Shown here: positions 4,883 to 63,157 of the stretch, piece by piece
Numbering within the stretch: position 1 is the first letter of the stretch
Layout of the letters: every line of letters starts with the position of its first letter
IMG/VR virus record: IMGVR_UViG_2643221865_000003
DNA length: 64,000 nt
DNA from: an uncultured virus (IMG/VR IMGVR_UViG_2643221865_000003)
Lineage: Duplodnaviria; Heunggongvirae; Uroviricota; Caudoviricetes
Direction: 5' to 3' (one strand)
The notes under the pieces: model-generated
Seen by the model: the letters and a program-made list of their open reading frames with translations, nothing else
Database searches by the model: none
Told to the model about the DNA's origin: nothing
Program-made: the position numbers and the translations under genes

Positions 4883-4891
4883 CATGCGCGG
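4883..4891 (-). promoter_or_regulatory. Motif A (CCGCRCATG)
   Basis: CCGCGCATG just upstream of the SD of 3499..4860. Confidence 0.7.
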
Positions 4892-4925
4892 AATCACCAG
4901 CTCGTGAGGAAGGCGATAGCCAGGC

Positions 4926-5624
4926 TCAGGTGTTCGGCGGTTCCACCAGCAGCACCGGCCCAGCCTTCGGCGCCGGCCACACCTGCACGACGTACACCTC
5001 GTCGAGGTCGTCGCTGACACCGTCGTAGTGGAGTTCGCGGCCGCGGGCTGAGATCCGCACCCGGTAGTCACCGGGTCCGTTGATCGCTGCGCTGCGGATC
5101 TGCGCTGCATCTTCGAACGAGGTGATGTCGATGATCCCGAACTCGGAGTGGATGGATGCCTCCCCGACCCATTCGCCGTCCAGCATCGGCGGTTCCTCAC
5201 GGGTGGCTTCCACCCGGATGGGGACCAGTCCGGTGTTCAGCCCGGTGAACACCACCACCCCGGTGTCGGACAGCGCGAACAGACGGTTCTGGTAGTTGGT
5301 CGTGGTGAAGATGCTGCCGTCGCCGTCCGGGTGGGCTCCGTCGACGGAGAAGAACCCTTCGTGGATGCGGATGGTGGCCGCCGCCGTGAACGGCTCACCG
5401 CCCGTGTGCGTCTTCGGCGGTCTGACGCCGAGGTTCGCCCTGATCGCCGCCGCCCGCTCCGCGTCGGTCATCGGCGGGTGGAGTTCGTGTGCCCGGATCA
5501 GCGCCGCCCGCGCCGCCGCGGCATCTTCATCGTCCTGCAGAGGCTGGATGATCTGAGCGAACAGGTAACTGTCTCGGTCGCGGTCGTCTGTCACGACGGT
5601 CAGAGTATCGCGGGCTTCCCACAC
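4926..5624 (-). CDS. Hypothetical protein
   Basis: Protein-like ORF; start uncertain. Confidence 0.55.
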   Translation of the reverse strand: MWEARDTLTVVTDDRDRDSYLFAQIIQPLQDDEDAAAARAALIRAHELHPPMTDAERAAAIRANLGVRPPKTHTGGEPFTAAATIRIHEGFFSVDGAHPDGDGSIFTTTNYQNRLFALSDTGVVVFTGLNTGLVPIRVEATREEPPMLDGEWVGEASIHSEFGIIDITSFEDAAQIRSAAINGPGDYRVRISARGRELHYDGVSDDLDEVYVVQVWPAPKAGPVLLVEPPNT

Positions 5625-5807
5625 TGGATCTCGGATCCATTGGTCAATCGGGTCTGAGCGGCGTACTACTCGGTGCAGCCACTCAGCAGCAGCGGCTCAC
5701 ACCCTCCCGCCAAATTGGGTCGGTGAAGCGCTGGCCACAGCGCCGCCAGCTGCGTATGAGTAGTCGGGACCAAATCGGCCCCAGCACCGAAACGAAACGA
5801 GAACCCC

Positions 5808-6371
5808 ATGACCAACCCCTTCAACCCCAGCTTCGACGACATGCTGCGCGACCTCCTGTCGACGCTCGAGGCGACCGGCACCCACCCGGTCCCGGACGGC
5901 ATCACCGACCCGACGGACGCCGGCGGAAAGATCCTGTCGGCGATCGAGAGCCTCCGCTCGACCGCCGGCATCCGTCCCGGAGACTGGAAGGTCGCGAACC
6001 AGCACCGTCTCGGCGGGATCGTCGAAGCGTTCACCGTACTGCTCACCGCTGTCCCCGGCACCGTCCTCATGGACATGCCGACGTCGATGGTCGAGGACGA
6101 CGGGCCGTCCATCGGGTTCTTCGCCCTCCTCCCCTACGGGACGTTCGCACCGATCACCGTGATGTTCCTCGCCCAGCACCAGGCCGTCACCAACCCGTGC
6201 TCGCCGTTCACCGGCTTCGTGGAGGAGGAGATCCAGGTGACGCTGGCCGGGGTGCGCCCGGACGCCGAGACGCAGCAGGTGTGCGACCAGGTGGAGGAGT
6301 TCTTCATGGCGCAGCTCCGCCGCGGTCGCGGTGTGGCCGGGTACTACGGGATCGCCGACCAGCTGGTGTGA
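5808..6371 (+). CDS. Hypothetical protein
   Basis: Strong GC3 bias; followed by a hairpin; motif A variant CTGCGTATG at 5750. Confidence 0.75.
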   Translation: MTNPFNPSFDDMLRDLLSTLEATGTHPVPDGITDPTDAGGKILSAIESLRSTAGIRPGDWKVANQHRLGGIVEAFTVLLTAVPGTVLMDMPTSMVEDDGPSIGFFALLPYGTFAPITVMFLAQHQAVTNPCSPFTGFVEEEIQVTLAGVRPDAETQQVCDQVEEFFMAQLRRGRGVAGYYGIADQLV

Positions 6372-6381
6372 CCGAAGGCGT

Positions 6382-6412
6382 GGCCGGGGTGGGAGCGGAA
6401 CTCACCCCGGCC
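6382..6412. terminator. Hairpin between convergent genes
   Basis: GGCCGGGGTG..CACCCCGGCC 10-bp inverted repeat. Confidence 0.65.
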
Positions 6413-6431
6413 TGCCTGTTCAGCTGAAGGA

Positions 6432-6998: not shown

Positions 6999-7057
6999 CG
7001 GTCGATTGTGTCAGCACCGTGCGACGTAAACGGGCGGCGCCACCGAAGTGACAAAGT

Positions 7058-7066
7058 CCGCACATG
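7058..7066 (+). promoter_or_regulatory. Motif A
   Basis: GAAG-N10-CCGCACATG-TCGGT upstream of the TFTG paralog triplet. Confidence 0.7.
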
Positions 7067-7105
7067 TCGGTGGTGAATCCCAACCCCACCGTCGAAGGAG
7101 CCACC

Positions 7106-11106: not shown

Positions 11107-11115
11107 CCGCACATG
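11107..11115 (+). promoter_or_regulatory. Motif A
   Basis: GAAA-N10-CCGCACATG-AAGGT. Confidence 0.7.
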
Positions 11116-14368: not shown

Positions 14369-14377
14369 CATGCGCGG
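14369..14377 (-). promoter_or_regulatory. Motif A (divergent pair, left)
   Basis: AGAA-N10-CCGCGCATG. Confidence 0.7.
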
Positions 14378-14418: not shown

Positions 14419-14427
14419 CCGCGCATG
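14419..14427 (+). promoter_or_regulatory. Motif A (divergent pair, right)
   Basis: AAAA-N10-CCGCGCATG-ATGGT. Confidence 0.7.
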
Positions 14428-15890: not shown

Positions 15891-15899
15891 CCGCGCATG
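15891..15899 (+). promoter_or_regulatory. Motif A
   Basis: GGAA-N9-CCGCGCATG-TTGGT. Confidence 0.7.
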
Positions 15900-16322: not shown

Positions 16323-16877
16323 TTGCTTGGCATTATGGTCCCCGAACGGCGGCCACCCACCTTGGTCAGCCGAAGCCGGGGGTTCACCTTGAAGGAGCGA
16401 TCTGTCGACGACCCGAAACGCACCTGGGATGAGTCGTTCCCGTTGTTCGTCGCGTGGGTTGCGGAGCATGGCCGGCTGCCGATGAAGACGGCGGAGCCCG
16501 GTGAGGAGCACCGCCACGCCACCTGGATGCAGTACCAACGTCGGCACCTGTCCCGCGGTACGTTGCTCCCCGATCATCAGGAGAAGCTCGACGAAGCCAC
16601 CCCGGGCTGGGAAGGACCTGCCGTGCCTGGCGTTCCGACCGCCGACCGGTATGAGCAGCTGTGGGGCGCCCGCCTTGATGAGCTGGCGACGTGGGTTGCG
16701 CAGCATGGCCGGTGGCCGAGCTCGTTGAGCAGCGACCCGGTCGAGGCGCATGCTGGCCGCTGGATCGGGGTGCAGCGCGGAGCGAAGGCAAGCACCGGCC
16801 GACGCTACAACGAGCGGTGCGTCCGACTGACCGCTGCGCTGCCCGGATGGGATGCGGAGAAGCTGAACCGGCGCTGA
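16323..16877 (+). CDS. Stand-alone HA-repeat protein (2 repeats)
   Basis: W..HGRLP..W.QYQR..LD..PGW pattern twice (PF03457-like); start uncertain. Confidence 0.75.
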   Translation: MLGIMVPERRPPTLVSRSRGFTLKERSVDDPKRTWDESFPLFVAWVAEHGRLPMKTAEPGEEHRHATWMQYQRRHLSRGTLLPDHQEKLDEATPGWEGPAVPGVPTADRYEQLWGARLDELATWVAQHGRWPSSLSSDPVEAHAGRWIGVQRGAKASTGRRYNERCVRLTAALPGWDAEKLNRR

Positions 16878-19044: not shown

Positions 19045-19079
19045 GCTGACGCCCAGCGACAGCGGGTAGCGTTGATCGG

Positions 19080-19599: not shown

Positions 19600-20490
19600 T
19601 CAAGCGCGGGACGCGAGCCATTCGGCTTTCCAGGCTTCATGCGCGGCTCGCTCCTCTTCTTCAGCGACTGCGCGTCCGCGCATCCATTCGTCGATGAACG
19701 CTTCGGAATCGGTGATCCGGTCGTGAGTCTCTACGCTTCCGGTTTGACGATCGACATTCCCGATCATCCCGGCTCGGCTTGCAAATGACCTCAGGTGAGC
19801 TGGCCAGTTCTTCTGCGGAACCCTTTTTGCCTTGAGTTCGTAGACCTGCTCCGGGTAGGTGTAGAAGGACGGGGTCGGCAGGGGTTCCGTGCTGATCCTG
19901 TTCAGCAGAAACCATGCCACCTCGAACCTATCCAGAAGATCGCGGAAGTTGGACCTCCTGGCGGACCAGGACGCCGCTTGGTCCGCCAGGCCGGTGTCAC
20001 GCTCCTCGAAGCTGTCTCCTCCGGCAGGGTCGACGTAAGCGGAGATGAGCTGGCCGAGCTTGTGGATCTCGGATGCTTCTTCTTTGTGCCGTCCAACCCA
20101 CTTGACGGCGGCCTTCCGCCTCGCGGCGGTGTAGTGGTATGGATCAATCCCGATGAACGGCTTCAGCTTCTTGGTGCCGAACGGTCCAGACAGAACGTAG
20201 TACTCGTGCTCGACGGACGAGGATGTTTCAGTGACGGTCACTGAGACGACATCGCGCATGTAGCTGTCGCCCTCCCAGTCCCACATTTCGACGAGGTCGT
20301 AGGAGACGGTGAAGGGGCCATCGGGCCACATAAGTGGGACGTTGTCCCCCTGGAAGTTGTGGCCCTCCATCTCTCCGAAAACGTTCCGCTTCAGTGGCGG
20401 TGCCGGTGTCGGCTCTTCGATGTAGGCGATCACCTTGTTGAGGTTCGGGGCGTCCCAGGGTTCGGGGGCCCTCGAAGGATCGGCGCTCAT
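19600..20490 (-). CDS. Hypothetical protein
   Basis: Protein-like ORF; SD GGAG. Confidence 0.7.
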   Translation of the reverse strand: MSADPSRAPEPWDAPNLNKVIAYIEEPTPAPPLKRNVFGEMEGHNFQGDNVPLMWPDGPFTVSYDLVEMWDWEGDSYMRDVVSVTVTETSSSVEHEYYVLSGPFGTKKLKPFIGIDPYHYTAARRKAAVKWVGRHKEEASEIHKLGQLISAYVDPAGGDSFEERDTGLADQAASWSARRSNFRDLLDRFEVAWFLLNRISTEPLPTPSFYTYPEQVYELKAKRVPQKNWPAHLRSFASRAGMIGNVDRQTGSVETHDRITDSEAFIDEWMRGRAVAEEEERAAHEAWKAEWLASRA

Positions 20491-20538: not shown

Positions 20539-20547
20539 CATGCGCGG
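20539..20547 (-). promoter_or_regulatory. Motif A
   Basis: CCGCGCATG-TTGGA upstream of 20490. Confidence 0.65.
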
Positions 20548-29941: not shown

Positions 29942-32359
29942 ATGTTCAACCTCAGCTCCACGATCCGCGCATGGAAGTTGACGCGCTCCGGAAGCCTCAA
30001 CGCGAACCCTCAGGTGTTCGTCCAAACTGCCGGTGTTTTCGCTTCCGGAGTTGTGCCGGGAACCGCGATCGTCGCGCACCGAGATGAGCGTGGACTGGCT
30101 CACTACATGTTGACGCCGGAGCACCAGAACGCAGCGTCGTTGGCGTCGCATCTGTCGAGGGCTGTCGCGGCCCGCGTCGACCCTGTCGACCACCTGCCAG
30201 ACCTCGGTTCCGTGGCGAAGGTTGTGTCGCTCCGCACCGGCCGCCGGCCGCAGCTGATCGCCCGCGATACACAGTTCGGTGCGGACCCGGCAGCGGTGTC
30301 CCGCGCTCTGTCGGTGTCGATGGCTGAAGGCGAATGGGTCGCTGCTGTGCTCCGCCGCCCGACGAACTCGGAACGCCGGTGGATGTTCGACTGGCTGGCC
30401 GGACAGTTCGGTCAGGCGAACCCGACGTACCACGCTCGCCGCGGCGAAGCGTTGCTGGTGTCGCTGTATGCCGGATCGGATTCCGTGGAGTCCGCCTCTC
30501 AGCTGCTCGCTGGGGTGACCGCTGCGATGCCCGGGTTCGACTTGGACGCCCGGCCGGTGGCACTGTCCCGCAGCCGCGACGCACTCCCGATGCTCGGCTT
30601 CTCCGTCGCCGCTGGTGTCGCCGCCTGGTTCCTCAGCCACGGTGTCGCCGACACCGCCCACCTGCCGGAGTTCACCGGGACCGCCGCCTGGGCTGCCGCC
30701 GGCGCTTCGCTGCTCGGAGCTCTGGGCCTGTCAACCGGACACATCCGTGGCCGGTACGCGAAGATGCGCGCTGGGCTGTCGGTGGGACGGTTCCCGAAGA
30801 TCCGGAAGAAGGCGCTGCGGCCGGCCCGAGCTCAGGAGCCGACCTTCCGTGACGGCGTTCAGGTGACCGGCAAGTCGAACGCCGGGTACGGACTCGTGAA
30901 CGACGCGTTCATGCTCGGCCAGGAACTGCCGGTGTCGCTGGCCGCCCCGCACGGCGGCACCGCATCCGGTGAGTCATCCACCGCAGTCCGTGAAGCGCCG
31001 GCGGTGATGAACCAGATCATCGGCCCGCGCATCGGACGCTCCGCCGGCAAATGGGTGGCACTGTCCGCGAAGGACCTGTGGCAGGGGATCATGTTCCTCG
31101 GTGTTCCCGGATCCGGTAAGTCCGTCGCCCTCCGCAACCTGTGGGCGTGGATGTGCATGGAGCGAGCACGACCCTCTGGCCGCGACGGGTACCCCGGCGC
31201 CCGCAACGTCGTCATCGCGTTGGAGACGAAAGGTGAAGGCGCCGCCGCGTACAAGCAGATGTCCCAGGAGGTCGGCGACAGTGTCGGCGTCTGCGACCTC
31301 GCCGATGACACCACCCCGGCGATCGACATGTTCCCCCGCATCGGCTCACTGGAGAACCAAGCCCGCACCATCACGAACGCGATGCGTTACGTCTGGGGCG
31401 ACAACAGCATCGGCCACCACTCGTTCAACATGCTCGCCCGTGTGTTCACCGCCGCTCTCGTCGTCGACCCGGCGATCGCAGCTCAGGCCGGCACCATCCG
31501 GGTGGGCGCCTCCCCGTTCTACTACGCCTACATTCTGCTCGGCGGCCACGGCGACGACCACGCCGTGAACCTCGCCGACGCGATCCGGTCGCAGGCGGAA
31601 CTGATCAAGGCTGTCGAAGGGTCCGACCTGGCTGTCGCCTGCAACGAACTGTCCACCATCTTCGGACCCGGCGTCACACCGAGCGCCCGGAAGACGATGA
31701 CGGAAGCTCCCCGGAACAAGGCAGCGCTCCTCCTCACCGCTGAAGGCTGGTGGTCCCGCCCGGCGAAGGTGTCCTGGGATCAGATCCTCCAGCAGGGCTG
31801 GGGCGTCATCGTGAACGTCGGCCCCACCCCCGGCGGTCAGCCGGTCGACAAGCAGCTGAAGGAAGACATGGTCGCCATGCTCATGTTCTCCCTGTACGAG
31901 GCCATCGGACGCAACTGCTCCAGCTGGGAGTCCGAAGGCCGCCGCGTCTCCGTGTTCTCCGACGAGCTCACCGAGGTCGCCGGGCAGTCGCCGGAGATCA
32001 TCGAGTGGATGAAGGACAAGGGTCGTTCGTTCGGCATCCAGCCGGTGTTCGCCACGCAGCGTGCCGGCCAGCTTGACCCCGCCGTCCGCGAGTCCGTCCT
32101 CGGCTTCGGCACCATCCTCGCGTACACGCAGGATGTCCCCGCTGTCATGCAGCAGCTCGTCGCTGACTTCTCCGCCGACGGCACCGAATGGTCCACCGCC
32201 GACGTCGCCAACCTTCCCCCGTTCGAAGCGATCGTCCGTTCGCGTGTGAACCGCGCCCGGCAGCCTGCGTTCACGGTGAAGCTCGCGAACTTCGAGGACA
32301 ACATGTCCGACTACAGCCGCGTCCAGTTGGAAGCTGACGCTGAGGACATCCTGCTGTGA
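29942..32359 (+). CDS. VirD4/TraD-like coupling-protein ATPase
   Basis: Two TM helices; Walker A GVPGSGKS; Walker B VSVFSDE; KGRSFGI..FATQ. Confidence 0.8.
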   Translation: MFNLSSTIRAWKLTRSGSLNANPQVFVQTAGVFASGVVPGTAIVAHRDERGLAHYMLTPEHQNAASLASHLSRAVAARVDPVDHLPDLGSVAKVVSLRTGRRPQLIARDTQFGADPAAVSRALSVSMAEGEWVAAVLRRPTNSERRWMFDWLAGQFGQANPTYHARRGEALLVSLYAGSDSVESASQLLAGVTAAMPGFDLDARPVALSRSRDALPMLGFSVAAGVAAWFLSHGVADTAHLPEFTGTAAWAAAGASLLGALGLSTGHIRGRYAKMRAGLSVGRFPKIRKKALRPARAQEPTFRDGVQVTGKSNAGYGLVNDAFMLGQELPVSLAAPHGGTASGESSTAVREAPAVMNQIIGPRIGRSAGKWVALSAKDLWQGIMFLGVPGSGKSVALRNLWAWMCMERARPSGRDGYPGARNVVIALETKGEGAAAYKQMSQEVGDSVGVCDLADDTTPAIDMFPRIGSLENQARTITNAMRYVWGDNSIGHHSFNMLARVFTAALVVDPAIAAQAGTIRVGASPFYYAYILLGGHGDDHAVNLADAIRSQAELIKAVEGSDLAVACNELSTIFGPGVTPSARKTMTEAPRNKAALLLTAEGWWSRPAKVSWDQILQQGWGVIVNVGPTPGGQPVDKQLKEDMVAMLMFSLYEAIGRNCSSWESEGRRVSVFSDELTEVAGQSPEIIEWMKDKGRSFGIQPVFATQRAGQLDPAVRESVLGFGTILAYTQDVPAVMQQLVADFSADGTEWSTADVANLPPFEAIVRSRVNRARQPAFTVKLANFEDNMSDYSRVQLEADAEDILL

Positions 32360-33909: not shown

Positions 33910-33938
33910 GCGAGGCGTTCAGGGAAATCCGGTGGCGT

Positions 33939-33947
33939 CCGCACATG
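33939..33947 (+). promoter_or_regulatory. Motif A
   Basis: GAAA-N11-CCGCACATG. Confidence 0.7.
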
Positions 33948-33988
33948 TGTTGGGCGAAGCAGATCAACCTTTCGAACGGACATCTCCC

Positions 33989-37852: not shown

Positions 37853-38515
37853 TCAGCCTGCCAGGTGCGCCACCGGCCGAGCCTGGCTCACCGGCTCCGG
37901 CGCACAGAGCTTGTACGAGTCGGTGACAGTTGCCGGATGCTGATCCCAGCGCTGACGAAGCCGCGCTCGGGCCCTGGACAGGAGCACCGCGGCGTGGCCG
38001 GGGGTGACTCCGGTGGCTTCGGCGATCTCGGCTGTGGTCTTCTGCTCGACTTCGGCGAGCCAGATGATGGCTCGCATCCGGTCGGGCAGCAGGTTGAACG
38101 CGTCGATCGCGTGACGGCCGCGTTCGGTGGTGATCGCCAAGTCCGTCGGGTCGGGCAGCACGGGGTCGAGGACGCCGTCGTCGACGTCGGTTTCGAACTC
38201 AGCTGCTTCCCACATAATGCCGGTGGTCAGCACTTCGGTGAAGGTGGAGCCGATCCCTTTCCCGCGGGCGACGTGCTCAACGACTCGGGTGAACACGTTG
38301 GCGACGACATCGTCGGTGTACCCGATGTCGAGTGATCTCACGTCCAGCTCGCGACGGGCCGCGGCGACAGCCCACGGGTAGGAGCGGCGGAGCATCTCGT
38401 CGAGCGCGGACATGTTGCCGGCGCTGACTTGTGTGGTGAGCGCCTTGTCGCTCATGCGTGCGTAGAGCTGGTCTGTCCGGGGCGCGGACGGGTGGTGCTG
38501 CAAAACTTCCCCCAT
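37853..38515 (-). CDS. Sigma-70 family (ECF-like) RNA polymerase sigma factor
   Basis: Region 4 LPDRMRAIIWL..TAEIAEATGVTPGHAAVLLSRARARL; region 2-like DDVVANVF; start 38515 or 38455. Confidence 0.8.
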   Translation of the reverse strand: MGEVLQHHPSAPRTDQLYARMSDKALTTQVSAGNMSALDEMLRRSYPWAVAAARRELDVRSLDIGYTDDVVANVFTRVVEHVARGKGIGSTFTEVLTTGIMWEAAEFETDVDDGVLDPVLPDPTDLAITTERGRHAIDAFNLLPDRMRAIIWLAEVEQKTTAEIAEATGVTPGHAAVLLSRARARLRQRWDQHPATVTDSYKLCAPEPVSQARPVAHLAG

Positions 38516-41122: not shown

Positions 41123-41215
41123 ACATCTTCTATGCGCGAGGGAGGGTGCCGGCTGCTGATGCCAGCCGGGTGCAGAGGTCACGCATAGAACCGGTGGAAC
41201 GAATACCGGAGACCC

Positions 41216-42325: not shown

Positions 42326-42400
42326 TCTCGGAGGAGCCGCGGGCCTCCAACCCGACGCTGAAACGCGCAGCCGGCCTGTTACGCCACGCATAGGACCCCT

Positions 42401-43075
42401 ATGCATGACACAACAACTACCGATCAGGCGTTCACCGACGCGCTGGACGCCCTTGCCGCTTTCGTGACTGACCACAGCCGCACCCCCAGCATCAAAGAGA
42501 CCTCAGACGGCGTCCGCGTCGGCGAGTGGCTCGCAACGCAGCGCGCCCAGTACCGCAACGGCCGGCTCACCGGCGAGCGTGCCACCGCGATCACCGCGAT
42601 CATCCCCGGAAGCCTCGACACCCTCGAAGACGCATGGCGGGCACGGGCTGCCGACCTAGAACGCTTCATCCAGGTCCGTCACCGCACACCACTCCGCAAC
42701 GGCCGCGGCGAAGCATCCCTCGCCATCTGGCTCATGAACCAGCAGACCGCAGAGAAGAAGGGCACCCTCCCGGCACCCAGATCCGAGCGCCTCGCCCAGA
42801 TCCTCAGCCAGTCCGGCGAGACCCTGGCGAAAGGTGCCTGGTCGACCACGCTCAGCAATCTGGAGGCGTTCGTCGCCGCCAACGGCAGGCTCCCCCGACG
42901 CGGCAGCTCAGACATCGTCGAGCGCCGCCTCGCCGATTGGGTCAACACCCAGCGCCACCGCCACAACACCGTGAAGAACCTCACCATCGACCGGATCAAC
43001 CGGCTCGCCGCCATCCCCGGATGGGCATGGTCAGCGAAGGAACCCAGCACCGTGCTGAACGCCGGACTGGCCTGA
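42401..43075 (+). CDS. Stand-alone HA-repeat protein (3 repeats)
   Basis: GEWLATQR, IWLMNQQ, DWVNTQR..IPGW; motif A variant CCACGCATA 8 nt upstream. Confidence 0.85.
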   Translation: MHDTTTTDQAFTDALDALAAFVTDHSRTPSIKETSDGVRVGEWLATQRAQYRNGRLTGERATAITAIIPGSLDTLEDAWRARAADLERFIQVRHRTPLRNGRGEASLAIWLMNQQTAEKKGTLPAPRSERLAQILSQSGETLAKGAWSTTLSNLEAFVAANGRLPRRGSSDIVERRLADWVNTQRHRHNTVKNLTIDRINRLAAIPGWAWSAKEPSTVLNAGLA

Positions 43076-46811: not shown

Positions 46812-46926
46812 GCCTGGACAGCCACCCCGATTACGCCTGGCAGCCGCCGGCACCGGAGGCGTCGTGACAGCCGGCCCGATCCGCCACGCATAGAGATAGG
46901 TTGCGGTTCTGCAAAACGTTCCGTGT

Positions 46927-47513: not shown

Positions 47514-47517
47514 TTCC

Positions 47518-48213: not shown

Positions 48214-48229
48214 GGATTTCTGTCCGCAT

Positions 48230-48238
48230 CCGCACATG
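48230..48238 (+). promoter_or_regulatory. Motif A
   Basis: CCGCACATG-ACGGT. Confidence 0.7.
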
Positions 48239-48290
48239 ACGGTTCCAGGTCGCATCTGTCCCGACGATGCCCTGTTAGGAGCTCCCCCTC

Positions 48291-49271: not shown

Positions 49272-49322
49272 ACCCTCACACTGGGTGTCGCGGCACTCTG
49301 AGGCCGCTGCTACCTTCACGTC

Positions 49323-50057: not shown

Positions 50058-50058
50058 C

Positions 50059-50562
50059 GTGACCACCATTGAACAGTTCCGATACGCCATCCTGAGCCCC
50101 GCCGGCCGCAGCAACGTCGGCGTCACCATGACCGACGAAGACGCCACCTGGATCGCCGCGGACGGAGAACGCCTCCACGGTGCTTTCACAGCTTGGTCCT
50201 CCACCCGGCCCGCCGCCCTCGCGCAGGCGGTACCGGCGTTCGCTGCACCACCGCCGTCCACCCCGCCGGTGTTCAGGGCACCACCTCAGGCTGTCACCGC
50301 GCCACCTCCGGCGCCGGATCCGGTCAGCGCGTTCTGCATCTCCCTGGTCGGGTTGGTGCTGGCCGCAGTCCCGTTCCTCGCTCTCCCGCTGGGGATCGTC
50401 GGCGTTGTGGTGGCACGGAAGAGTTTGAGCCGAATGCCTGCCGGGGCGCCCCGCCGAGCTCTCGCCTCCTGGGCTTTCGGTCTCGGGGTCGCCGCAATCT
50501 CCATTACCAGCGCCCTCGTGCTGCTGGCGATCTCGGGAGCTATCAGTCAGAGCTTCTGGTGA
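50059..50562 (+). CDS. DUF4190-like membrane protein
   Basis: Pro-rich stretch then hydrophobic helices; start uncertain. Confidence 0.55.
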   Translation: MTTIEQFRYAILSPAGRSNVGVTMTDEDATWIAADGERLHGAFTAWSSTRPAALAQAVPAFAAPPPSTPPVFRAPPQAVTAPPPAPDPVSAFCISLVGLVLAAVPFLALPLGIVGVVVARKSLSRMPAGAPRRALASWAFGLGVAAISITSALVLLAISGAISQSFW

Positions 50563-50587
50563 GCTGACGCCACACACCTACAGGTGC

Positions 50588-51673: not shown

Positions 51674-51696
51674 ACGCGGCCCGGTGGGAGCCCTGT

Positions 51697-51705
51697 CGCC
51701 ACATG
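51697..51705 (+). promoter_or_regulatory. Motif B
   Basis: CGCCACATGGCTCC upstream of the pilin-like gene. Confidence 0.65.
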
Positions 51706-51735
51706 GCTCCCTCCCGTAGGACAGGAGGTGCGACC

Positions 51736-54057
51736 ATGCCGTCACGGGTCATGGCTACAGTTCGACGCACCCGAGCAGCGATAGATCTCGCCTCGATCAT
51801 GGTCGGCGTCCTCGTCATCGCCATCGTCGCCGGCGCCCTCAGCGTCACCACCTTCGGGGTGATCCCTTGGGCTCAAAACGAAGCCGCGAAGGCGTACCTC
51901 ACAGAAGTGTCGGACGCGGAAAGCGCAGCGAAACTCCCCAACCCGACAATCCAGCAGTCCGGCCGCTACCTACCCAATGACCTGTTGGCTACCGCCGGCT
52001 TCCTGGATGAACGGGCCGGCGCAACAGTCGCGACCGACCTCGGCGGCACCTGCTTCGCCGCTGTCGCGAAATCGGACAGCGGCCCTGTGTACTGGGTGTC
52101 GGACCGGTCACCGAAACCGTTGCTGTACCTCGGAGATCACGACCCATGCACCGACCTGAGCGCGATGGTCGCCGCGGTCGGCGGCGCGCAAGGTCTCACG
52201 TCCGTTACCAACCTGCTGACCAACCCGTCATGGGAAGCGGTCACCCCGGGCACGGCGTTGCTCCGCTCGAACCTCACCCAGAGCCCGGCAGTCCAATCCG
52301 TTGCCGGCTGGTCCGTGTCGGCCGCTGGCGGGGCCGCGCAAGGCAGTGCCGGTGGGAAGATCGGACCGGCAGGAGCGTCGTACAAGGGCACGGTCGCCGC
52401 CACGAGCGGCTCAGCATCGATCGCGATAGCGGCGACAGCCCCGGGCGGTTTCATCCCGGCAGCCTCATACACAGCGTCGATTTACGGCACCGTCACCTGG
52501 AACGCTGTCACGTTCGCGTCCATCAGCTGGTTCGACGCCTCCGGCACACTCATAGGCACCACGTCTGGGTCGGCATCAGCCCAAACTGCAGGTGCGGTTG
52601 CGCGCCGTTCCGTGGCGGGTGTCGCACCGACCAACGCTGCGACAGCCACAGTCCAGTTCGTCACCGACTCATCCGCCCCACCGAAGGTGGGCGACACCGC
52701 CTCCGCATCCGCCGCACTCTTCGAACGGACCACCTCACTTCGCACGTACTTCGACGGCAGCACCGTCGACACGAACGGATGGGCTTTCGCATGGGACGGG
52801 CCTGCATCCGTGGCCATGGCAACCCCGGTGGAATCCCGGCGGAACCTCGCGTCGTACACCAACGGGCTCGGTTTCATGCCGGACGTCACCGGTGCCGGGT
52901 TCCGGAACAGTCGGGCACCCGCGAACGTCACCTACTCGATCGTCCCCACCCCAACCGACGCCGCCGCCCTCTCAGCACGGTCCTATGTTCGGAAGACCTG
53001 GAAAGCTGTCACGACCGGCGCCGGCAACGGATTCGCGCTCACCCAAGCCGACCCCGACTCAGCCTCACCCGGCACTGACACAGGGCTCCCCGTCGACGCC
53101 GGCCAGACGTACACGATCAGTTCGTACGTGAAAGCCAGCGCCACCGGCAAAGCAGCCCTCGTCCGGGTCAGGTTCTTCACCCCCGGCTCCGGGTGGGTTG
53201 GAGCAGCGACATCCGGGGCCAGCCTCTCCCTGTCAGCGAACGCGTGGGCGCGCCCACGACTCACCATCACCGCACCGACCGGCGCGACGATGGCGGCGAT
53301 CGTCGTCGACACCGGTGCCGGCACGACCAACTGGAAGGCCGGCGACACGTTCGACGCCACCCAGCTCCTCATCGAAGAAGGCTCCGCCCTCCAGTCGTAC
53401 TTCGACGGAACCACCGGCAGCGGAGGCGGAGCATCCCAGGAGTGGGTCGGCGAGGAGGGGAAGTCCCCGTCTCGAGCGATGTCGCCCCTGCCCGCCGGAG
53501 CGGAATCATCACTCTCCGGAAACGACAGGGTCGCAACGGTCGGCGGCACCGCCTGGAAGACCGACGGTGCACAGAGCATCCGGATCTCCGCCCTCGGTGA
53601 CGGAACAGCCACGTCAGTGACCGTCGCGGGGAGTGGAGCGGGACTCTCCGGCCATGGTGTGACATTGGAGCCGGGGAAGACCTACACGATGGTCGGCACC
53701 GCCCAGCTCAGCGTCACCCAGAAGGGAACGCTGGACTCTCGGGCCCGCTCGATCGTGTTCGCAGACTCCACAACCGGGGACGCCGGCATCCGCTCCGATC
53801 AGCTCCCGAACGTCGTCGGCGCAGGCGATCTGCGTCTCACCTTCACGGTGAGCCCCTCAGCGACCTGGGCGACCATCCGGTTGTTCAACGGCGCATCCGT
53901 GGGGAACGGAGACGTGTCATGGGACCACCTCGCATTGATCGAAGGCGAATACACCGGACCTGCGTTCAACGGCAACACCCCACGGACCGATCAGGTCCGG
54001 TACGACTGGGCAGGACCTGGCAACGCGAGCGCATCGACGATGCACCGGTACCGGTGA
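51736..54057 (+). CDS. Type IV pilin-like protein with large CBM-like C-terminal region
   Basis: Basic leader RRTRA, then AIDLASIMVGVLVIAIVAG..IPWAQ; repeated NL..NPS, YT.S.Y and YFDG units; SD AGGAGG. Confidence 0.65.
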   Translation: MPSRVMATVRRTRAAIDLASIMVGVLVIAIVAGALSVTTFGVIPWAQNEAAKAYLTEVSDAESAAKLPNPTIQQSGRYLPNDLLATAGFLDERAGATVATDLGGTCFAAVAKSDSGPVYWVSDRSPKPLLYLGDHDPCTDLSAMVAAVGGAQGLTSVTNLLTNPSWEAVTPGTALLRSNLTQSPAVQSVAGWSVSAAGGAAQGSAGGKIGPAGASYKGTVAATSGSASIAIAATAPGGFIPAASYTASIYGTVTWNAVTFASISWFDASGTLIGTTSGSASAQTAGAVARRSVAGVAPTNAATATVQFVTDSSAPPKVGDTASASAALFERTTSLRTYFDGSTVDTNGWAFAWDGPASVAMATPVESRRNLASYTNGLGFMPDVTGAGFRNSRAPANVTYSIVPTPTDAAALSARSYVRKTWKAVTTGAGNGFALTQADPDSASPGTDTGLPVDAGQTYTISSYVKASATGKAALVRVRFFTPGSGWVGAATSGASLSLSANAWARPRLTITAPTGATMAAIVVDTGAGTTNWKAGDTFDATQLLIEEGSALQSYFDGTTGSGGGASQEWVGEEGKSPSRAMSPLPAGAESSLSGNDRVATVGGTAWKTDGAQSIRISALGDGTATSVTVAGSGAGLSGHGVTLEPGKTYTMVGTAQLSVTQKGTLDSRARSIVFADSTTGDAGIRSDQLPNVVGAGDLRLTFTVSPSATWATIRLFNGASVGNGDVSWDHLALIEGEYTGPAFNGNTPRTDQVRYDWAGPGNASASTMHRYR

Positions 54058-54868: not shown

Positions 54869-54877
54869 CCGCGCATG
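54869..54877 (+). promoter_or_regulatory. Motif A
   Basis: CCGCGCATG-AAGGT. Confidence 0.7.
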
Positions 54878-55468: not shown

Positions 55469-55477
55469 CCGCGCATG
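55469..55477 (+). promoter_or_regulatory. Motif A
   Basis: CCGCGCATG-TAGGT. Confidence 0.7.
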
Positions 55478-57761: not shown

Positions 57762-57770
57762 CCGCGCATG
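57762..57770 (+). promoter_or_regulatory. Motif A
   Basis: GAAA-N9-CCGCGCATG heading the small-gene operon. Confidence 0.7.
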
Positions 57771-61195: not shown

Positions 61196-61576
61196 GTGGG
61201 AACCACCCGCACCTTCCAGCACCACGACGACGTCGTCGCGCTGCACGGCATCCTGACCCGCGCGTGGGCGAAAGCGGAACCCGACCACACGGTGACGCAG
61301 AACCCTGCCGCGTACTCCGAGACGTTCCTCGATTTGGCCCGCGCCGCTGTCGACTCCGGGTACCGCCACCCCGACTCGAAGCAGGAGTGGGTGGTCTACA
61401 ACTGGGCGAACGGCACGCGCTACCTCGTTGACGGCGGGACGCAGGAGAACGCGGAGAAGGAAGCCGCCCTCTGTGACCACGACCACCAGGCTCAACCGGC
61501 GGAAACGGCGCGGCTCCTCAGCAATGCGTTCAACCACGGCCGCCACAAAGGCGTCCGCGAGGCCGGTGACCGATGA
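61196..61576 (+). CDS. Hypothetical protein
   Basis: SD AGGAG. Confidence 0.7.
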   Translation: MGTTRTFQHHDDVVALHGILTRAWAKAEPDHTVTQNPAAYSETFLDLARAAVDSGYRHPDSKQEWVVYNWANGTRYLVDGGTQENAEKEAALCDHDHQAQPAETARLLSNAFNHGRHKGVREAGDR

Positions 61577-61806
61577 GCGCCAGCATCTTCAGCCCAAGGC
61601 CGTTCCTCTCCGGCCGCTGCCGGGACCGGGAGCCGGTCAGCTTCGGCTGCGGCACCGCCAGGCTGAACGCCCGCATCCAATTCTACGAATGCGACCTCGA
61701 CGTCGACCACGACGGCGACCACTACGACAAGCGCGAGAAGCGCAGCTGGGAACGCTGGCCGGAAACCGCTGCCACCCCGACACTGGAGGACACGAACCAT
61801 GCCTAG
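61573..61806 (+). CDS. Small Cys/His protein
   Basis: C..HDGDH; ATGA overlap. Confidence 0.65.
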   Translation: MSASIFSPRPFLSGRCRDREPVSFGCGTARLNARIQFYECDLDVDHDGDHYDKREKRSWERWPETAATPTLEDTNHA

Positions 61807-62215
61807 CCCGCTCCCTGCGTACCGCACCGACCGCACCCACTTGTACCGGATTCGCGGGAACTGGACCACCGACGCCGGCATCCACCTGTCGGAGGATGCG
61901 CTTCTGTTCGACCACCTCCCCGTCGACCAGCTCGGACCCGACGACAACGTCGTGGTGAAGATCGACGTCACGAACAGCGGACGCCCCCGATTCGACTGGA
62001 ATGCGCCGGACAAGTCCTGGCTCGGCCGGACTCGCGACGCCGTCGCAACGAAGATCGCGATGTTCGCGTACCGGTTCATCGCCACACAGTTCTACCGGGA
62101 GAACGTCACCGCCGCGTTGACGTTCGGGCTGAAGGATGCCCGTGCCGACTACGAGAAGTCGATCCCGAAGGTGTCCGTCGACGACCTGTTCAATACGAAG
62201 CAGCCGCAGCCGTGA
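61799..62215 (+). CDS. Hypothetical protein
   Basis: SD GGAGG. Confidence 0.7.
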   Translation: MPSPLPAYRTDRTHLYRIRGNWTTDAGIHLSEDALLFDHLPVDQLGPDDNVVVKIDVTNSGRPRFDWNAPDKSWLGRTRDAVATKIAMFAYRFIATQFYRENVTAALTFGLKDARADYEKSIPKVSVDDLFNTKQPQP

Positions 62216-62523
62216 CCCTCTGGGCCACCGCGCTGATCATCGCGGCGTTCGTCCTCGGCGGAGCGTCCGTCGGCGTCGTAGTGGTGAACCACTTCCGCGG
62301 CGACGCGAAAGCCATCTCGGACGCTCAGGTGTGGGCGGTGTTCAACTGGGACTCCGGGGAGCTGTTCAACGTATCTCCGGCAACACAGCTGAACGCAGAG
62401 CGGGAGGCTCAGCTCGCCGGGCCCGGGCATGAGGCGTTCGAGATCGTGACCGCCGCGTACCTGCGGCGCGCGTACGCGCACGGCCGCGATGGTGCGCCCG
62501 ACCGCCACATGCCTCACGGCTGA
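62212..62523 (+). CDS. Membrane-anchored small protein
   Basis: N-terminal TM; GTGA overlap. Confidence 0.65.
   Translation: MTLWATALIIAAFVLGGASVGVVVVNHFRGDAKAISDAQVWAVFNWDSGELFNVSPATQLNAEREAQLAGPGHEAFEIVTAAYLRRAYAHGRDGAPDRHMPHG
62503..62511 (+). promoter_or_regulatory. Motif B
   Basis: 11 nt before ATG 62523, inside the end of the previous gene. Confidence 0.55.
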
Positions 62524-62726
62524 TGACATCCAAGAACCCTGTACTCGACGCGTTCCTCAACAACTGGGACGGCTCCGCCTCGGAGGTGTCTGAGGCGATC
62601 CACAATCTGGTCACCGACCCGGAGTCCGCTGACGGTCTCGGCTGGAGCAGAGACGAAGTCCGGAACGCGATCGCGAACCTCCGCCGCCTCGAAGCCACGG
62701 CAAGCGTCGATGCTGTCCTGGTCTGA
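62523..62726 (+). CDS. Small hypothetical protein
   Basis: TGATG overlap. Confidence 0.65.
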   Translation: MTSKNPVLDAFLNNWDGSASEVSEAIHNLVTDPESADGLGWSRDEVRNAIANLRRLEATASVDAVLV

Positions 62727-63132
62727 ACGACGGCTGATCCGTCGTGCCCGGAAGGCAGCGGAAGCTTCCCGATGGCTCCACGAAGCGAACCTGCAGGCCA
62801 TCCGCGCTGTCCATGAGGCAGAACGCAACGGCTCCTGCCCGTTGGCGTGCTGCTCTTCCTATGCGTACGCGGCGATGCTCGCCTGGGAGCAGGAGAAGCT
62901 CGGCGGGTACTACCTGTCCGGCACAGAGCAGGACGCGTTCGAAGCCGGATGGGACGCCCGCGGCCCCGGATGGCGGACCGGGACCCTCACCGTCGACTTC
63001 CAAGTCCTAGCCGGCCCCGCCTCCTACCAGGAGGCCGACGAGAAGATCAGGGCTCTGCTCGAGGAGGCCGGGTACACGATCGGGTCGTTCGGCATCTCCG
63101 GCCAGCTGCCGAAAACCGATCCGTCGGACTGA
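62710..63132 (+). CDS. Hypothetical protein
   Basis: Overlaps the previous gene; AFEAGWDA. Confidence 0.6.
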   Translation: MLSWSERRLIRRARKAAEASRWLHEANLQAIRAVHEAERNGSCPLACCSSYAYAAMLAWEQEKLGGYYLSGTEQDAFEAGWDARGPGWRTGTLTVDFQVLAGPASYQEADEKIRALLEEAGYTIGSFGISGQLPKTDPSD

Positions 63133-63148
63133 CCGAAAACCAGCCGAT

Positions 63149-63157
63149 CCGCACATG
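63149..63157 (+). promoter_or_regulatory. Motif A
   Basis: GAAA-N10-CCGCACATG. Confidence 0.7.

What the first reader, a model, noticed from the sequence alone, without database searches (positions are those of the whole stretch)
4883..63157. Element-wide promoter-like motif A (AA-N10-CCGCRCATG-NN-GGT) marks a private regulon of 20 or more transcription units
Seen: exact CCGC[AG]CATG, co-oriented and just upstream of genes, at 4883(-), 7058, 11107, 14369(-), 14419, 15891, 20539(-), 21236(-), 24930(-), 33939, 38744, 40573(-), 43097, 46927, 48230, 54869, 55469, 57762 and 63149. Variants lie at 5750, 41131(-), 41179, 42384, 45450 and 46884. Most copies have an AA (GAAA/AGAA/AAAA) 9-11 nt upstream, and many are followed by NNGGT. 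Two CATA variants sit exactly 8 nt before SD-less ATGs (41122, 42401), which would put the A at -11 of a leaderless start. My rough base-composition estimate is 2-3 chance hits, about the two intragenic copies I saw. Inference: this is an extended -10 promoter read by a non-housekeeping, probably element-encoded sigma factor. It matches no sigmaA/SigH/SigF consensus I know, and the short spacing recalls sigma28/WhiG.
Basis: partly seen in the sequence, partly recalled or inferred. Interest (0 to 1): 0.85.

Follow-up and report, generated by a model that had tools for sequence, protein, structure and literature searches.

The report
Private promoter code of actinobacterial megaplasmid
A 36-base signal repeated about 200 times on a 701-kb plasmid, and almost never on the host chromosome, is most likely the plasmid's own promoter, so this giant plasmid and its relatives seem to switch on their genes apart from the host, much as a phage does.

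Summary
CCGCRCATG occurs 21 times in the window against 2.7 expected. It occurs 199 times on the 701-kb, lower-GC contig C5 that holds the window, about ten times denser than on the other contigs. The full motif is CARAA-N9-TCCGCRCATG-WA-GGTG-N-Y-R.

Sites are intergenic (172 of 199) and co-oriented with the next gene (188 of 199). The base 9 nt after CATG is a purine in 190 of 199 sites. In 46 of 196 sites it is the first base of a coding ATG or GTG. Four sites head tRNA genes. I read this as a promoter with +1 at that purine and the A of CAT at -11.

The box sits in the same register on related megaplasmids of Glaciihabitans and Curtobacterium, and in a chromosomal island of this host.

The reading factor is unresolved. 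C5 encodes two divergent ECF-like sigmas outside the regulon, one of them in the window. The Glaciihabitans plasmid has no detectable sigma.

The "CATA variants" belong to a second private motif. The sigma-28 idea is not supported. This scan noted the same box before on other DNA.

The parts
4874..4906 (-). Motif A site (core 4883-4891), inferred +1 at 4874; heads the PcfJ-like gene 3499-4860
   Evidence: (26.3 bits; AAGGAGG then ATG 14 nt after +1)
7043..7075 (+). Motif A site (core 7058-7066), inferred +1 at 7075
   Evidence: 28.1 bits
11092..11124 (+). Motif A site (core 11107-11115), inferred +1 at 11124
   Evidence: 32.7 bits
14360..14392 (-). Motif A site (core 14369-14377), +1 at 14360; divergent partner of the 14419 site
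   Evidence: 28.6 bits
14404..14436 (+). Motif A site (core 14419-14427), +1 at 14436
   Evidence: 31.9 bits
15876..15908 (+). Motif A site (core 15891-15899), +1 at 15908
   Evidence: 34.8 bits
20530..20562 (-). Motif A site (core 20539-20547), +1 at 20530
   Evidence: 28.4 bits
21227..21259 (-). Motif A site (core 21236-21244), +1 at 21227
   Evidence: 22.6 bits
24921..24953 (-). Motif A site (core 24930-24938), +1 at 24921; heads the DprA-like gene 24022-24885
   Evidence: (34.4 bits)
33924..33956 (+). Motif A site (core 33939-33947), +1 at 33956
   Evidence: 24.4 bits
38729..38761 (+). Motif A site (core 38744-38752), +1 at 38761; divergent from the sigma-like gene
   Evidence: 32.2 bits
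40564..40596 (-). Motif A site (core 40573-40581), +1 at 40564; heads the DUF4192 gene (GAAGGAGA then ATG 22 nt after +1)
   Evidence: 33.9 bits
43082..43114 (+). Motif A site (core 43097-43105), +1 at 43114; heads the HA-domain gene 43132-44115
   Evidence: 26.0 bits
46912..46944 (+). Motif A site (core 46927-46935), +1 at 46944
   Evidence: 29.5 bits
48215..48247 (+). Motif A site (core 48230-48238), +1 at 48247
   Evidence: 22.1 bits
54854..54886 (+). Motif A site (core 54869-54877), +1 at 54886
   Evidence: 26.8 bits
55454..55486 (+). Motif A site (core 55469-55477), +1 at 55486
   Evidence: 34.5 bits
57747..57779 (+). Motif A site (core 57762-57770), +1 at 57779
   Evidence: 36.5 bits
63134..63166 (+). 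Motif A site (core 63149-63157), +1 at 63166
   Evidence: 33.5 bits
41122..41155 (-). Motif B site (CAGCCGGC ... TCGCGCATA, then 8 nt, then ATG at 41122): second private motif, leaderless-type
41163..41196 (+). Motif B site (CAGCCGGG ... TCACGCATA)
42368..42401 (+). Motif B site (CAGCCGGC ... CCACGCATA, then 8 nt, then ATG at 42401); heads the HA-domain gene 42401-43075
46868..46901 (+). Motif B site (CAGCCGGC ... CCACGCATA), 43 nt upstream of the motif A core at 46927
37853..38515 (-). Divergent ECF-type sigma-like gene (220 aa), a candidate reader of the motif. No motif A lies upstream of it; a TTCACG-N16-TAATGT housekeeping-like promoter was seen by eye upstream
   Evidence: (TIGR02937 44.6 bits, cut-off 42.9)
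19638..19646 (-). Exact 9-mer inside a gene; weak flanks (16.8 bits); taken as a chance copy
29965..29973 (+). Exact 9-mer inside the coupling-protein-like gene; 8.1 bits; chance copy

Best explanation
Motif A (CARAA-N9-TCCGCRCATG-WA-GGTG-N-Y-R) is the core promoter of most transcription units of a 701-kb conjugative megaplasmid, the contig that holds the window. Transcription starts at the invariant purine 9 nt after the G of CATG. That places the invariant A of CAT at -11, the CCGCRC block at -17 to -12 (the zone of an extended -10), GGTG in the discriminator, and CARAA at -32 to -28. About a quarter of the transcripts are leaderless, because the +1 purine is the A or G of the start codon. 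The rest have 15-60 nt leaders with an ordinary Shine-Dalgarno site, and some are tRNA transcripts. The host's core RNA polymerase, the only one found in the genome, is directed to these sites by a specificity factor that is not the housekeeping sigma and that the mobile element supplies. The best candidates here are two paralogous, very divergent ECF-type sigmas: window 37853-38515 and C5:475959-476735. Both lie outside the regulon, behind housekeeping-like promoters. That would give a two-step, phage-like programme: host sigma, then element sigma, then about 180 element promoters. Shown by sequence: enrichment, replicon confinement, intergenic position, orientation, the fixed register to start codons, and conservation of box and register in related plasmids. 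Inferred: the start site, promoter function, and above all which protein reads it.
For: Enrichment: 21 against 2.7 expected in the window. 199 exact cores on C5 (0.284 per kb) against 0.008-0.063 per kb on the other ten contigs, spread along all of C5. Extended matrix at 20 bits or more: 184 sites on C5 against 2 on the other 3.84 Mb. The 14-mer CCGCRCATGNNGGT: 106 in this genome (all the places the truncated listing showed lie on C5, apart from one on C1), 0-5 in each of 40 relatives. Position: 172 of 199 cores lie outside called genes although 89% of C5 is coding, and for 188 of 199 the first downstream gene is co-oriented. No conservation beyond -16 to +22, so this is not a repeat element. 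Start site: position 17 is a purine in 190 of 199 exact-core sites and in 196 of 196 matrix sites; position 16 is a pyrimidine in 176 of 196. Positions 17-19 read ATG in 45 sites and GTG in 6, and 46 of 196 open a coding ORF of at least 40 codons exactly there. Among positions 12-23 the peak is at 17 (45 starts); the smaller counts at 12 (19) and 15 (11) are, by my reading, in-frame GTGs inside the motif. Calibration: on chromosome contig C6, 70 of 549 genes have TANNNT 6-7 nt before the start codon, so the host's leaderless promoters also put their A at -11. Transcription rather than translation: 4 of the 14 sites in the tRNA region have a tRNA gene as first downstream feature. Relatives: CCGCRCAT against its reversed control is 27 vs 6 (Glaciihabitans plasmid), 163 vs 39 and 160 vs 41 (two Curtobacterium megaplasmids). 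Coding starts exactly at position 17 number 10 of 27 and 43 of 163, against 0 of 66 on chromosome contig C6. Factor: RNA polymerase beta and beta-prime domains match only on C6. Four sigma-family genes lie on C5. The window's is a two-domain ECF-type protein by profile and by fold: pLDDT 85, and the four matches at E 0.001 or better are all ECF sigmas, with sigmaE, AlgU, SigW, SigK, BldN, SigL and SigH among the top 20. None of the three ECF-type genes has motif A upstream. Regulon content: motif A directly heads gyrA-gyrB, a DNA ligase, SbcC and SbcD, UvrD, a Pol III alpha fragment, PARP, Thg1, DprA and others.
Against: No RNA data: no RNA run holds this DNA, so no 5' end is mapped and expression is not shown. 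The link between a sigma and the motif is untested. The window's sigma has no close homologue anywhere: the best other hit among 1.84 billion representatives scores 75 bits at 36-40% identity. The Glaciihabitans plasmid and the chromosomal island carry the box in the same register yet show no sigma-like gene, either with my ECF profile or, for the plasmid, with TIGR02937 at E up to 1. So an element-encoded ECF sigma cannot be the universal reader, unless it is hidden or supplied in trans. The geometry is unusual for ECF promoters as I recall them: the AAC of the upstream element lies only 10 nt before CGC and 14 nt before CAT, not 16-17. A contiguous conserved block from -18 to -3 is longer than a sigma usually specifies, which fits a bound regulator as well. 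For a distant relative, pMP7017, the published plasmid-unique motif was read as a transcription-factor site over a canonical -10 (PMC10832533, passages read). On pMP7017 the box is enriched about 3-fold but shows no register to start codons (0 of 45). pACHL01 is not enriched (32 vs 23).
Confidence: 0.72

Rival explanations
1. The conserved block is an operator for an element-encoded global regulator (repressor or activator) that overlaps a weak promoter read by the host's housekeeping sigma. The regulator, not a sigma, gives the private specificity.
For: The conserved stretch is long and contiguous, -18 to -3. The Glaciihabitans plasmid and the chromosomal island have the box but no detectable sigma. 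The A at -11 is in the housekeeping position. The authors of the pMP7017 study read their plasmid-unique 34-bp motif over the -10 in this way (PMC10832533, passages).
Against: The -12 to -7 hexamer is CATGWA: C at -12 in 196 of 196 sites and T at -7 in only 44 of 196. The host's own leaderless promoters show TANNNT. The motif is strictly directional with no dyad symmetry. No candidate regulator conserved in all box-bearing elements was found: the proteins shared by C5, both relatives and the island are an integrase, a peptidase, a conjugation-linked 517-aa protein, surface-repeat (RCC1/BNR-type) proteins, a 299-aa protein beside the integrase, and an acidic 174-aa protein without a DNA-binding look.
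Confidence: 0.12
2. A host-encoded alternative sigma, conserved in these actinobacteria and with few or no chromosomal targets, reads the box. The plasmids have adopted it.
For: The box and its register are kept across plasmids of different genera, while the plasmid sigmas are not conserved or are absent.
Against: Outside the island C1:380-485 kb the chromosome has no site with an intact core and a good score. All seven chromosomal sites with an intact core at 16 bits or more lie at C1:386,905-478,988. So there is no self-regulated host sigma promoter of this kind and no host regulon.
Confidence: 0.08
3. The motif is a translation signal, a start-associated sequence with an AGGTG piece complementary to the 16S rRNA tail, and not a promoter.
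For: AGGTG at positions 10-14 resembles part of GGAGGTG. A quarter of sites have a start codon 2 nt after it.
Against: In 119 of 196 sites no coding start lies in or right after the motif. By the gene caller the next start is mostly 21-60 nt after CATG, and the window sites that I read have their own Shine-Dalgarno site. Four sites are followed first by tRNA genes. The purine at position 17 is kept where no start codon is there. An upstream element 10 nt before the core has no role in translation.
Confidence: 0.03
4. The motif is a structured RNA or DNA element (5' UTR element, terminator, recombination site) or the end of a small mobile repeat.
For: High copy number and near-invariance of the core.
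Against: No Rfam family matches in the window. Twelve window sites folded as RNA give z-scores from -2.13 to +0.76 with no shared structure. Flanks beyond 38 nt carry no information.
Confidence: 0.02

Closest known systems
SigN (ZpdN) regulon of Bacillus subtilis plasmid pBS32 (PMC6751061; abstract and passages read)
   Same: A sigma factor encoded on a large plasmid drives a regulon confined to that plasmid. No SigN promoters were found in the chromosome. The sigma gene itself is read from housekeeping promoters. The regulon includes a plasmid gyrase gene, as here.
   Different: SigN is proven by in vitro transcription and Rend-seq; here nothing is tested. That plasmid is a Firmicute plasmid with an AT-rich consensus, a far smaller regulon and positive autoregulation. 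Here there are about 196 sites on 701 kb, no motif before the sigma genes, the sequences are unrelated, and one relative with the box has no detectable sigma.
Plasmid-unique 34-bp motif over the -10 of 19 promoters of Bifidobacterium breve megaplasmid pMP7017 (PMC10832533; passages read)
   Same: pMP7017 is a distant relative of this replicon: it shares the 517-aa conjugation-linked protein at 24% identity. Its motif is also absent from host chromosomes, overlaps the -10, and heads about a quarter of the coding capacity.
   Different: A different, AT-rich sequence around a canonical TATACT -10, interpreted as a transcription-factor site. The CCGCRCAT box on pMP7017 is only about 3-fold enriched and shows no fixed register to starts.
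Leaderless housekeeping promoters of Actinobacteria (TANNNT 6-7 nt before the start codon)
   Same: Same geometry: A at -11, +1 at the first base of the start codon. Seen in this host's own chromosome for 70 of 549 genes.
   Different: The hexamer here is CATGWA with an invariant C at -12 and a further invariant CCGCR upstream. It is confined to mobile elements, and only 19 of 854 genes on the plasmid use TANNNT in that position.
ECF (group 4) sigma factors and their promoters
   Same: The window's candidate protein has the two-domain ECF fold and passes the superfamily profile. The upstream element contains an AAC-like word.
   Different: Spacing and -10 sequence do not fit the ECF pattern as I recall it (AAC, 16-17 nt, CGT). 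No anti-sigma partner and no autoregulation were seen.
Phage middle and late promoters read by phage-encoded sigmas (recalled, e.g. T4 gp55, SPO1 gp28 and gp34)
   Same: A nearly invariant, short, element-wide promoter read by host core polymerase with an element factor; a temporal cascade.
   Different: Here the element is a conjugative plasmid of 701 kb with rep/par genes, flagellar genes and 42 tRNAs, not a virus. No phage structural genes turned up in the Pfam scans that I ran, which were not a dedicated search and left the 54 proteins of C5:588-701 kb unscanned.

Membership tests
Bacterial sigma-70-family promoter (any sigma) | Fixed distance from the -10-type element to the transcription start, with a purine start | tested here: met
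   By inference only. Position 17 is a purine in 190 of 199 sites; 46 of 196 coding starts lie exactly there; the A at -11 matches the host's TANNNT promoters.
Bacterial sigma-70-family promoter (any sigma) | Mapped primary 5' ends and dependence on a sigma | not testable with these tools
   No RNA run holds the stretch.
Housekeeping (sigma A) leaderless promoter | -10 hexamer TANNNT (T at -12, A at -11, T at -7) and use on the chromosome | tested here: not met
   C at -12 in 196 of 196 sites, T at -7 in 44 of 196. Chromosome outside the C1 island: no intact-core site at 16 bits or more.
Sigma-28 / FliA / WhiG promoter (TAAA-N15-GCCGATAA, consensus recalled) | The consensus words at that spacing, and a FliA-type sigma serving them | tested here: not met
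   The motif has CARAA-N15-CATGWAGG, not GCCGATAA. The FliA/WhiG-like gene (113.7 bits, below its 189.6 cut-off) sits directly before the flagellin and FliD genes with no motif within 1.5 kb. TAAA-N14-16-NCCGAT has no match on the C5 loci.
ECF sigma factor (protein of window 37853-38515) | Two domains, sigma-2 and sigma-4, without regions 1 and 3 | tested here: met
   TIGR02937 scores 44.6 bits against a 42.9 cut-off over residues 37-189. Model pLDDT 85.3. The four Foldseek matches at E 0.001 or better are ECF sigmas over 169-187 aligned columns, E down to 1.1e-4. Pfam sees only region 4.
ECF sigma factor (protein of window 37853-38515) | Own promoter of the regulon type (autoregulation) and a neighbouring anti-sigma | tested here: not met
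   No motif A upstream within its run of same-strand genes. Neighbouring genes have no Pfam match. The anti-sigma was not searched by fold.
ECF-type promoter (AAC in -35, CGT-like -10, 16-17 nt apart; recalled) | The two words at that spacing | tested here: not met
   AAC-like word at positions -12 to -10; CGC at 1-3 (10 nt apart) and CAT at 5-7 (14 nt apart).
Plasmid-private sigma regulon (SigN type) | Promoters confined to the plasmid | tested here: met
   184 sites on C5 against 2 elsewhere at 20 bits. But the box is shared with a chromosomal island and related plasmids.
Plasmid-private sigma regulon (SigN type) | The plasmid's sigma is necessary and sufficient for those promoters | not testable with these tools
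   Needs in vitro transcription or genetics. Co-occurrence across relatives argues against one conserved ECF reader.
Start-associated sequences of Cluster K mycobacteriophages (recalled) | Sits immediately before translation starts of protein genes | tested here: not met
   Only 46 of 196 sites have a start at the motif's end. Four sites head tRNA genes.

The most novel reading that the evidence does not exclude
A whole family of actinobacterial conjugative megaplasmids and integrated elements runs an autonomous, phage-like transcription programme from a conserved CCGCRCAT box at -17 to -10. The conserved reader would be a promoter-specificity factor that present sigma profiles do not recognise, since some box-bearing members have no detectable sigma. 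It would be a new class of sigma or of polymerase-redirecting protein, and the variable upstream words (CARAA, CAGCCGGC, or none) would be read by exchangeable partner domains.
Probability: 0.25. Interest if true: 0.85.

Novelty: new variant of a known kind. Interest (0 to 1): 0.62.

Why it matters
If the reading is right, a plasmid one sixth the size of its host's genome keeps about two thirds of its genes behind a promoter the host does not use: 579 of 854 genes lie downstream of a motif within the same run of same-strand genes, which is an upper bound. These include its own gyrase, ligases, repair enzymes and part of a 42-tRNA set. That is how phages insulate their programmes, and it is documented for plasmids essentially only in pBS32.

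The box is nearly invariant and is shared with megaplasmids of culturable Curtobacterium and Glaciihabitans strains. This gives a direct handle to annotate transcription units and true start codons on these poorly annotated replicons. It also lets one ask what switches a megaplasmid on (transfer, stress, growth phase), and it offers an orthogonal promoter and factor pair for high-GC actinobacteria.

The mismatch between a conserved box and non-conserved or absent sigmas is an open question that can now be tested.

Tried and rejected
- RNA evidence: no RNA holder is listed for window 38000-47999, so no start sites could be read.
- Laying contigs of soil metagenome run X2 on window 33000-52999 showed short pieces at about 88-98% likeness, including the sigma gene's 5' part with the 38744 site, and the 46884/46927 sites. 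The printed tables were too partial for a footprint of conservation.
- Near-identical DNA: none in the plasmid or phage collections for window 29000-49000.
I therefore did not spend the genome or metagenome scans on patterns.
- Family-level count of TCCGCRCATGNNGGT: 66 in this genome, at most 3 in each of 400 other genomes of the same family. This does not show that the box family is absent there, because the relatives found later use CATAG or other flanks.
- Homologues of the window's sigma: the word-indexed search found only two weak relatives. The exhaustive search found no orthologue, best 75 bits. It matched two of five related plasmids only weakly. So a co-occurrence test of sigma against box failed.
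- Search for a hidden reader among proteins shared by C5, the Glaciihabitans plasmid and Curtobacterium pS16 (56 proteins) and the island (33 proteins). Pfam and NCBIfam on the unknown ones gave a HAD domain, NERD, PLD, prepilin peptidase, an FtsK-like ATPase or nothing. The two I read do not look like DNA-binding proteins.
- Single-subunit RNA polymerase (PF00940): no match, but the control genomes gave none either, so this is uninformative.
- CGCATA as a general variant: not enriched on C5 as a bare 6-mer (0.127 per kb against 0.10-0.14). Only with the CAGCCG word upstream is it private.
- Look-ups of this scan's notes by place and by sequence gave nothing.
- Not run: Pfam on the 54 proteins of at least 230 aa from C5:588-701 kb (listed).
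- Literature: searches found no paper describing this box. Journals outside the held library were not searched.

Full report
**What is there.** The window is G000:C5:318655-382654. C5 is a 701,121-bp contig of 65.2% G+C in a 4.54-Mb genome whose other contigs are mostly 68-69% (one 6-kb contig is 62.7%). Exact CCGCRCATG occurs 21 times in the window, against a mean of 2.71 in 100 shuffles with none reaching 21. The other two, 19638(-) and 29965(+), lie inside genes and have weak flanks. On the whole genome the 9-mer occurs 199 times on C5 (0.284 per kb) and at 0.008-0.063 per kb on the other contigs, apart from one 6-kb contig with none. It is found all along C5, in strand-coherent blocks.

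**The full motif.** Aligning the 199 copies shows a directional signal of about 38 nt and no information outside it. After iteration (196 sites on C5 at 15 bits or more) it reads as follows, numbering from the first C of the core.
- C(-15) A R A A(-11), then nine weakly conserved bases, then T(-1).
- CCGCRCATG at positions 0-8, each position kept in 189-196 of 196 sites.
- W A at 9-10, G G T G at 11-14, N at 15.
- Y at 16 (176 of 196) and R at 17 (196 of 196), followed by a purine-rich stretch.

At 20 bits the matrix finds 184 sites on C5 and 2 on the remaining 3.84 Mb.

**Position relative to genes.** I called genes with a codon-usage model trained on C5 (854 genes, 89% coding). Of the 199 exact cores, 172 lie outside genes. 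For 188 the first downstream gene is co-oriented. In the window all 19 supported sites are intergenic and face a gene. An upper bound of 579 of 854 genes lie downstream of a site within the same run of same-strand genes.

**Where transcription would start.** Position 17 is a purine in 190 of the 199 exact-core sites, of which about 20 are expected chance copies. Position 16 is a pyrimidine.
- Positions 17-19 read ATG in 45 sites and GTG in 6. In 46 of 196 sites a coding ORF of at least 40 codons opens exactly there, without room for a Shine-Dalgarno site.
- Among motif positions 12-23 the count of such starts peaks at 17 with 45. The lesser counts at 12 (19) and 15 (11) are, by my reading, in-frame GTGs inside GGTGGTG.
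- In the other sites the next gene mostly starts 21-60 nt after CATG. The window sites I read have their own AGGAGG-like site.

This is the pattern expected if position 17 is +1. The A of CAT is then at -11, the core spans -17 to -9, GGTG lies in the discriminator, and CARAA sits at -32 to -28.

The host gives its own calibration. On chromosome contig C6, 70 of 549 genes have TANNNT 6 or 7 nt before the start codon, the classical actinobacterial leaderless arrangement with A at -11. On C5 only 19 of 854 genes do.

Four of the 14 sites in the tRNA-rich end of C5 have a tRNA gene as their first downstream feature, 63-384 nt after the inferred start. This speaks for a transcription signal and against a translation signal.

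No Rfam family matches the window. Twelve window sites fold no better than shuffles, with z-scores from -2.13 to +0.76 and no common structure.

**What the replicon is.** C5 has a plasmid RepA and ParA, and a conjugation module. The window genes 29942-32359 and 32356-33909 correspond to a type IV coupling protein and its conserved 517-aa neighbour.

It also carries:
- Tad-like pilus genes, GyrA and GyrB, two NAD-dependent ligases and one ATP-dependent ligase;
- a Pol III alpha fragment, SbcCD, UvrD and PARP;
- RNA ligase, Thg1, Ro60 and a CCA-adding/poly(A) polymerase family enzyme;
- Wadjet, type I-E Cas genes and a full-looking flagellar cluster;
- 42 tRNAs plus a tmRNA.

Motif A directly heads gyrA-gyrB, a ligase, sbcC, sbcD, uvrD, the Pol III fragment, PARP, Thg1, DprA, DUF4192, PcfJ and others. 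It is missing before the sigma genes, Wadjet, TnpB, HipA, UmuC, the integrase, Cas3, ThyA and TK, which look like modules with host-type promoters.

**Relatives.** The 517-aa protein finds a family of actinobacterial megaplasmids:
- Glaciihabitans sp. INWT7 (149 kb, 50% identity);
- three Curtobacterium plasmids (546-608 kb, about 40%);
- Arthrobacter-group plasmids, including pACHL01;
- Bifidobacterium pMP7017 and a Euzebya plasmid;
- Agromyces contigs, one of 447,725 bp.

| Record | CCGCRCAT (both strands) | Reversed control | Coding start exactly at position 17 | Purine at position 17 |
|---|---|---|---|---|
| Glaciihabitans plasmid | 27 | 6 | 10 of 27 | 23 of 27 |
| Curtobacterium pS16 | 163 | 39 | 43 of 163 | 137 of 163 |
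| Curtobacterium D40 | 160 | 41 | not tested | not tested |
| pACHL01 | 32 | 23 | not tested | not tested |
| pMP7017 | 45 | 14 | 0 of 45 | 28 of 45 |
| Chromosome contig C6 (control) | 66 | not counted | 0 of 66 | 31 of 66 |

Counts are, except the 66 for C6, which like the register tests is. On the Glaciihabitans plasmid no coding start fell at any other position from 12 to 23; on pS16 at most 8 did.

The flanks differ between relatives: pS16 uses TCCGCGCATAG and the Glaciihabitans plasmid TGCCGCGCATG, and neither shows CARAA. pMP7017 gives no register signal and pACHL01 no enrichment.

In this host's chromosome, all seven intact-core sites at 16 bits or more lie at C1:386,905-478,988. That 105-kb stretch holds 24 boxes, of which 19 are outside coding sequence and 20 have the purine. 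It also has homologues of the plasmid's integrase and conjugation-linked genes. I read it as an integrated relative.

So the box is private to a family of mobile elements, not to this one replicon. This scan's earlier notes say the same for other genomes (e1-5675979, e1-5629262). I checked the claim independently on the plasmids above.

**Who reads it.** RNA polymerase beta and beta-prime domains match only on chromosome contig C6, so the host core enzyme must be used. C5 has four sigma-family genes.
- A canonical ECF of 174 aa.
- A FliA/WhiG-like protein directly before the flagellin and FliD genes, with no motif nearby.
- Two paralogous, very divergent ECF-like proteins, 29% identical to each other: window 37853-38515 and C5:475959-476735.

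The window's protein passes the ECF superfamily profile over its whole length (44.6 bits, cut-off 42.9). Its model (pLDDT 85.3) matches ECF sigma structures first: the four matches at E 0.001 or better are all ECF sigmas. None of the three ECF genes has motif A upstream. A TTCACG-N16-TAATGT word precedes the window's gene; I saw this by eye.

This fits a cascade from host sigma to element sigma to the regulon, as shown experimentally for SigN of pBS32 (PMC6751061, abstract and passages).

The assignment remains an inference, and there is evidence against a single conserved sigma.
- The window's protein has no orthologue in 1.84 billion representatives.
- The Curtobacterium plasmids have only distant ECF genes.
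- The Glaciihabitans plasmid and the C1 island have none detectable.

The authors of the pMP7017 transcriptome study proposed the last for their different, plasmid-unique 34-bp motif (PMC10832533, passages).

**A second motif.** The pattern CAGCCG-N10-12-CRCGCATA has 18 copies on C5 and none elsewhere in the genome. Four are in the window, in or beside the cluster of HA-domain genes; the one at 42368 directly heads such a gene (42401-43075). It shares the CGCRCAT core and register with motif A but has another upstream word. Two upstream words and two paralogous sigmas suggest a pairing, which is untested.

**Verdict.** The promoter reading is well supported by sequence logic but has no RNA evidence. 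It is a new variant of a known kind, a plasmid-private promoter regulon of the pBS32 SigN type, on an unusual scale and shared across a plasmid family. I found no paper describing the box.

Noticed in passing
C5:5,894-22,352 (loci L001, L002); also L008:5731-5818, L036:15464-15537 and 19044-19117, L037:3601-3673: The megaplasmid carries 42 tRNA genes, 38 of them with a tmRNA gene in one 17-kb minus-strand array, covering all 20 amino acids. RNA ligase, Thg1 and Ro60/TROVE lie beside the array; a CCA-adding/poly(A) polymerase family gene lies about 110 kb away. This is an RNA-maintenance kit like those of jumbo phages.
   Followed up: partly
window 41122-41155(-), 41163-41196(+), 42368-42401(+), 46868-46901(+); 18 copies on C5: A second replicon-private motif: CAGCCGGC, about 11 nt, then YCRCGCATA-GA, with a leaderless ATG 7-8 nt later. 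It has 0 copies on the other 3.84 Mb. In the window it lies in or beside the HA-domain gene cluster.
   Followed up: partly
G000:C1:380,000-485,000: A chromosomal island with 24 CCGCRCAT boxes (19 outside coding sequence) and homologues of the plasmid's integrase, 517-aa conjugation-linked protein and a 1374-aa protein. It is probably an integrated conjugative element using the same promoter box.
   Followed up: partly
C5:102,730-130,000 (L006:3427 to L007:11069): A complete-looking flagellar gene cluster on the plasmid (FliA-like sigma, flagellin, FliD, FliF, FliG, FliI, hook, MotAB, FliM, FliPR, FlhBA, FlgK). It is unusual cargo for a plasmid.
   Followed up: no
C5:204,024-212,081 and C5:534,575-542,300: Wadjet (JetABCD-like: DUF2397, DUF2398, SbcC-like, DUF2399) and a type I-E Cas gene set (Cas3, Cse1, Cas7, Cas5) are plasmid-borne. 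An HA-domain gene lies between cas3 and cse1. The JetA gene has a host-type TANNNT leaderless promoter.
   Followed up: no
window 29942-33909: The 805-aa and 517-aa genes are the coupling-protein gene and its conserved neighbour. This pair marks a family of actinobacterial megaplasmids (Glaciihabitans, Curtobacterium, Arthrobacter group, Bifidobacterium pMP7017, Euzebya) that MOB-suite typing, as given in PLSDB, calls non-mobilizable.
   Followed up: partly
window 16482-16877, 26275-26751, 41216-44115, 47809-48213: Many paralogous genes with the helicase-associated (HA) domain lie in the window, with more elsewhere on C5 and on the related plasmids. Their function is unknown.
   Followed up: no
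window 35733-51185 (pieces): A 2024 soil metagenome run (X2) holds short contigs 88-98% alike to parts of this stretch, including the sigma-like gene's 5' part, so a close relative of the element lives in soil.
   Followed up: partly
C5:170,389-175,220: Three DnaJ-domain genes and a UvrD-like helicase lie in one minus-strand block; elsewhere there are an Hsp70 with two dynamin-like GTPases (C5:303.8-310.9 kb), and a eukaryote-like PARP with WGR domain at C5:195,120-196,430.
   Followed up: no
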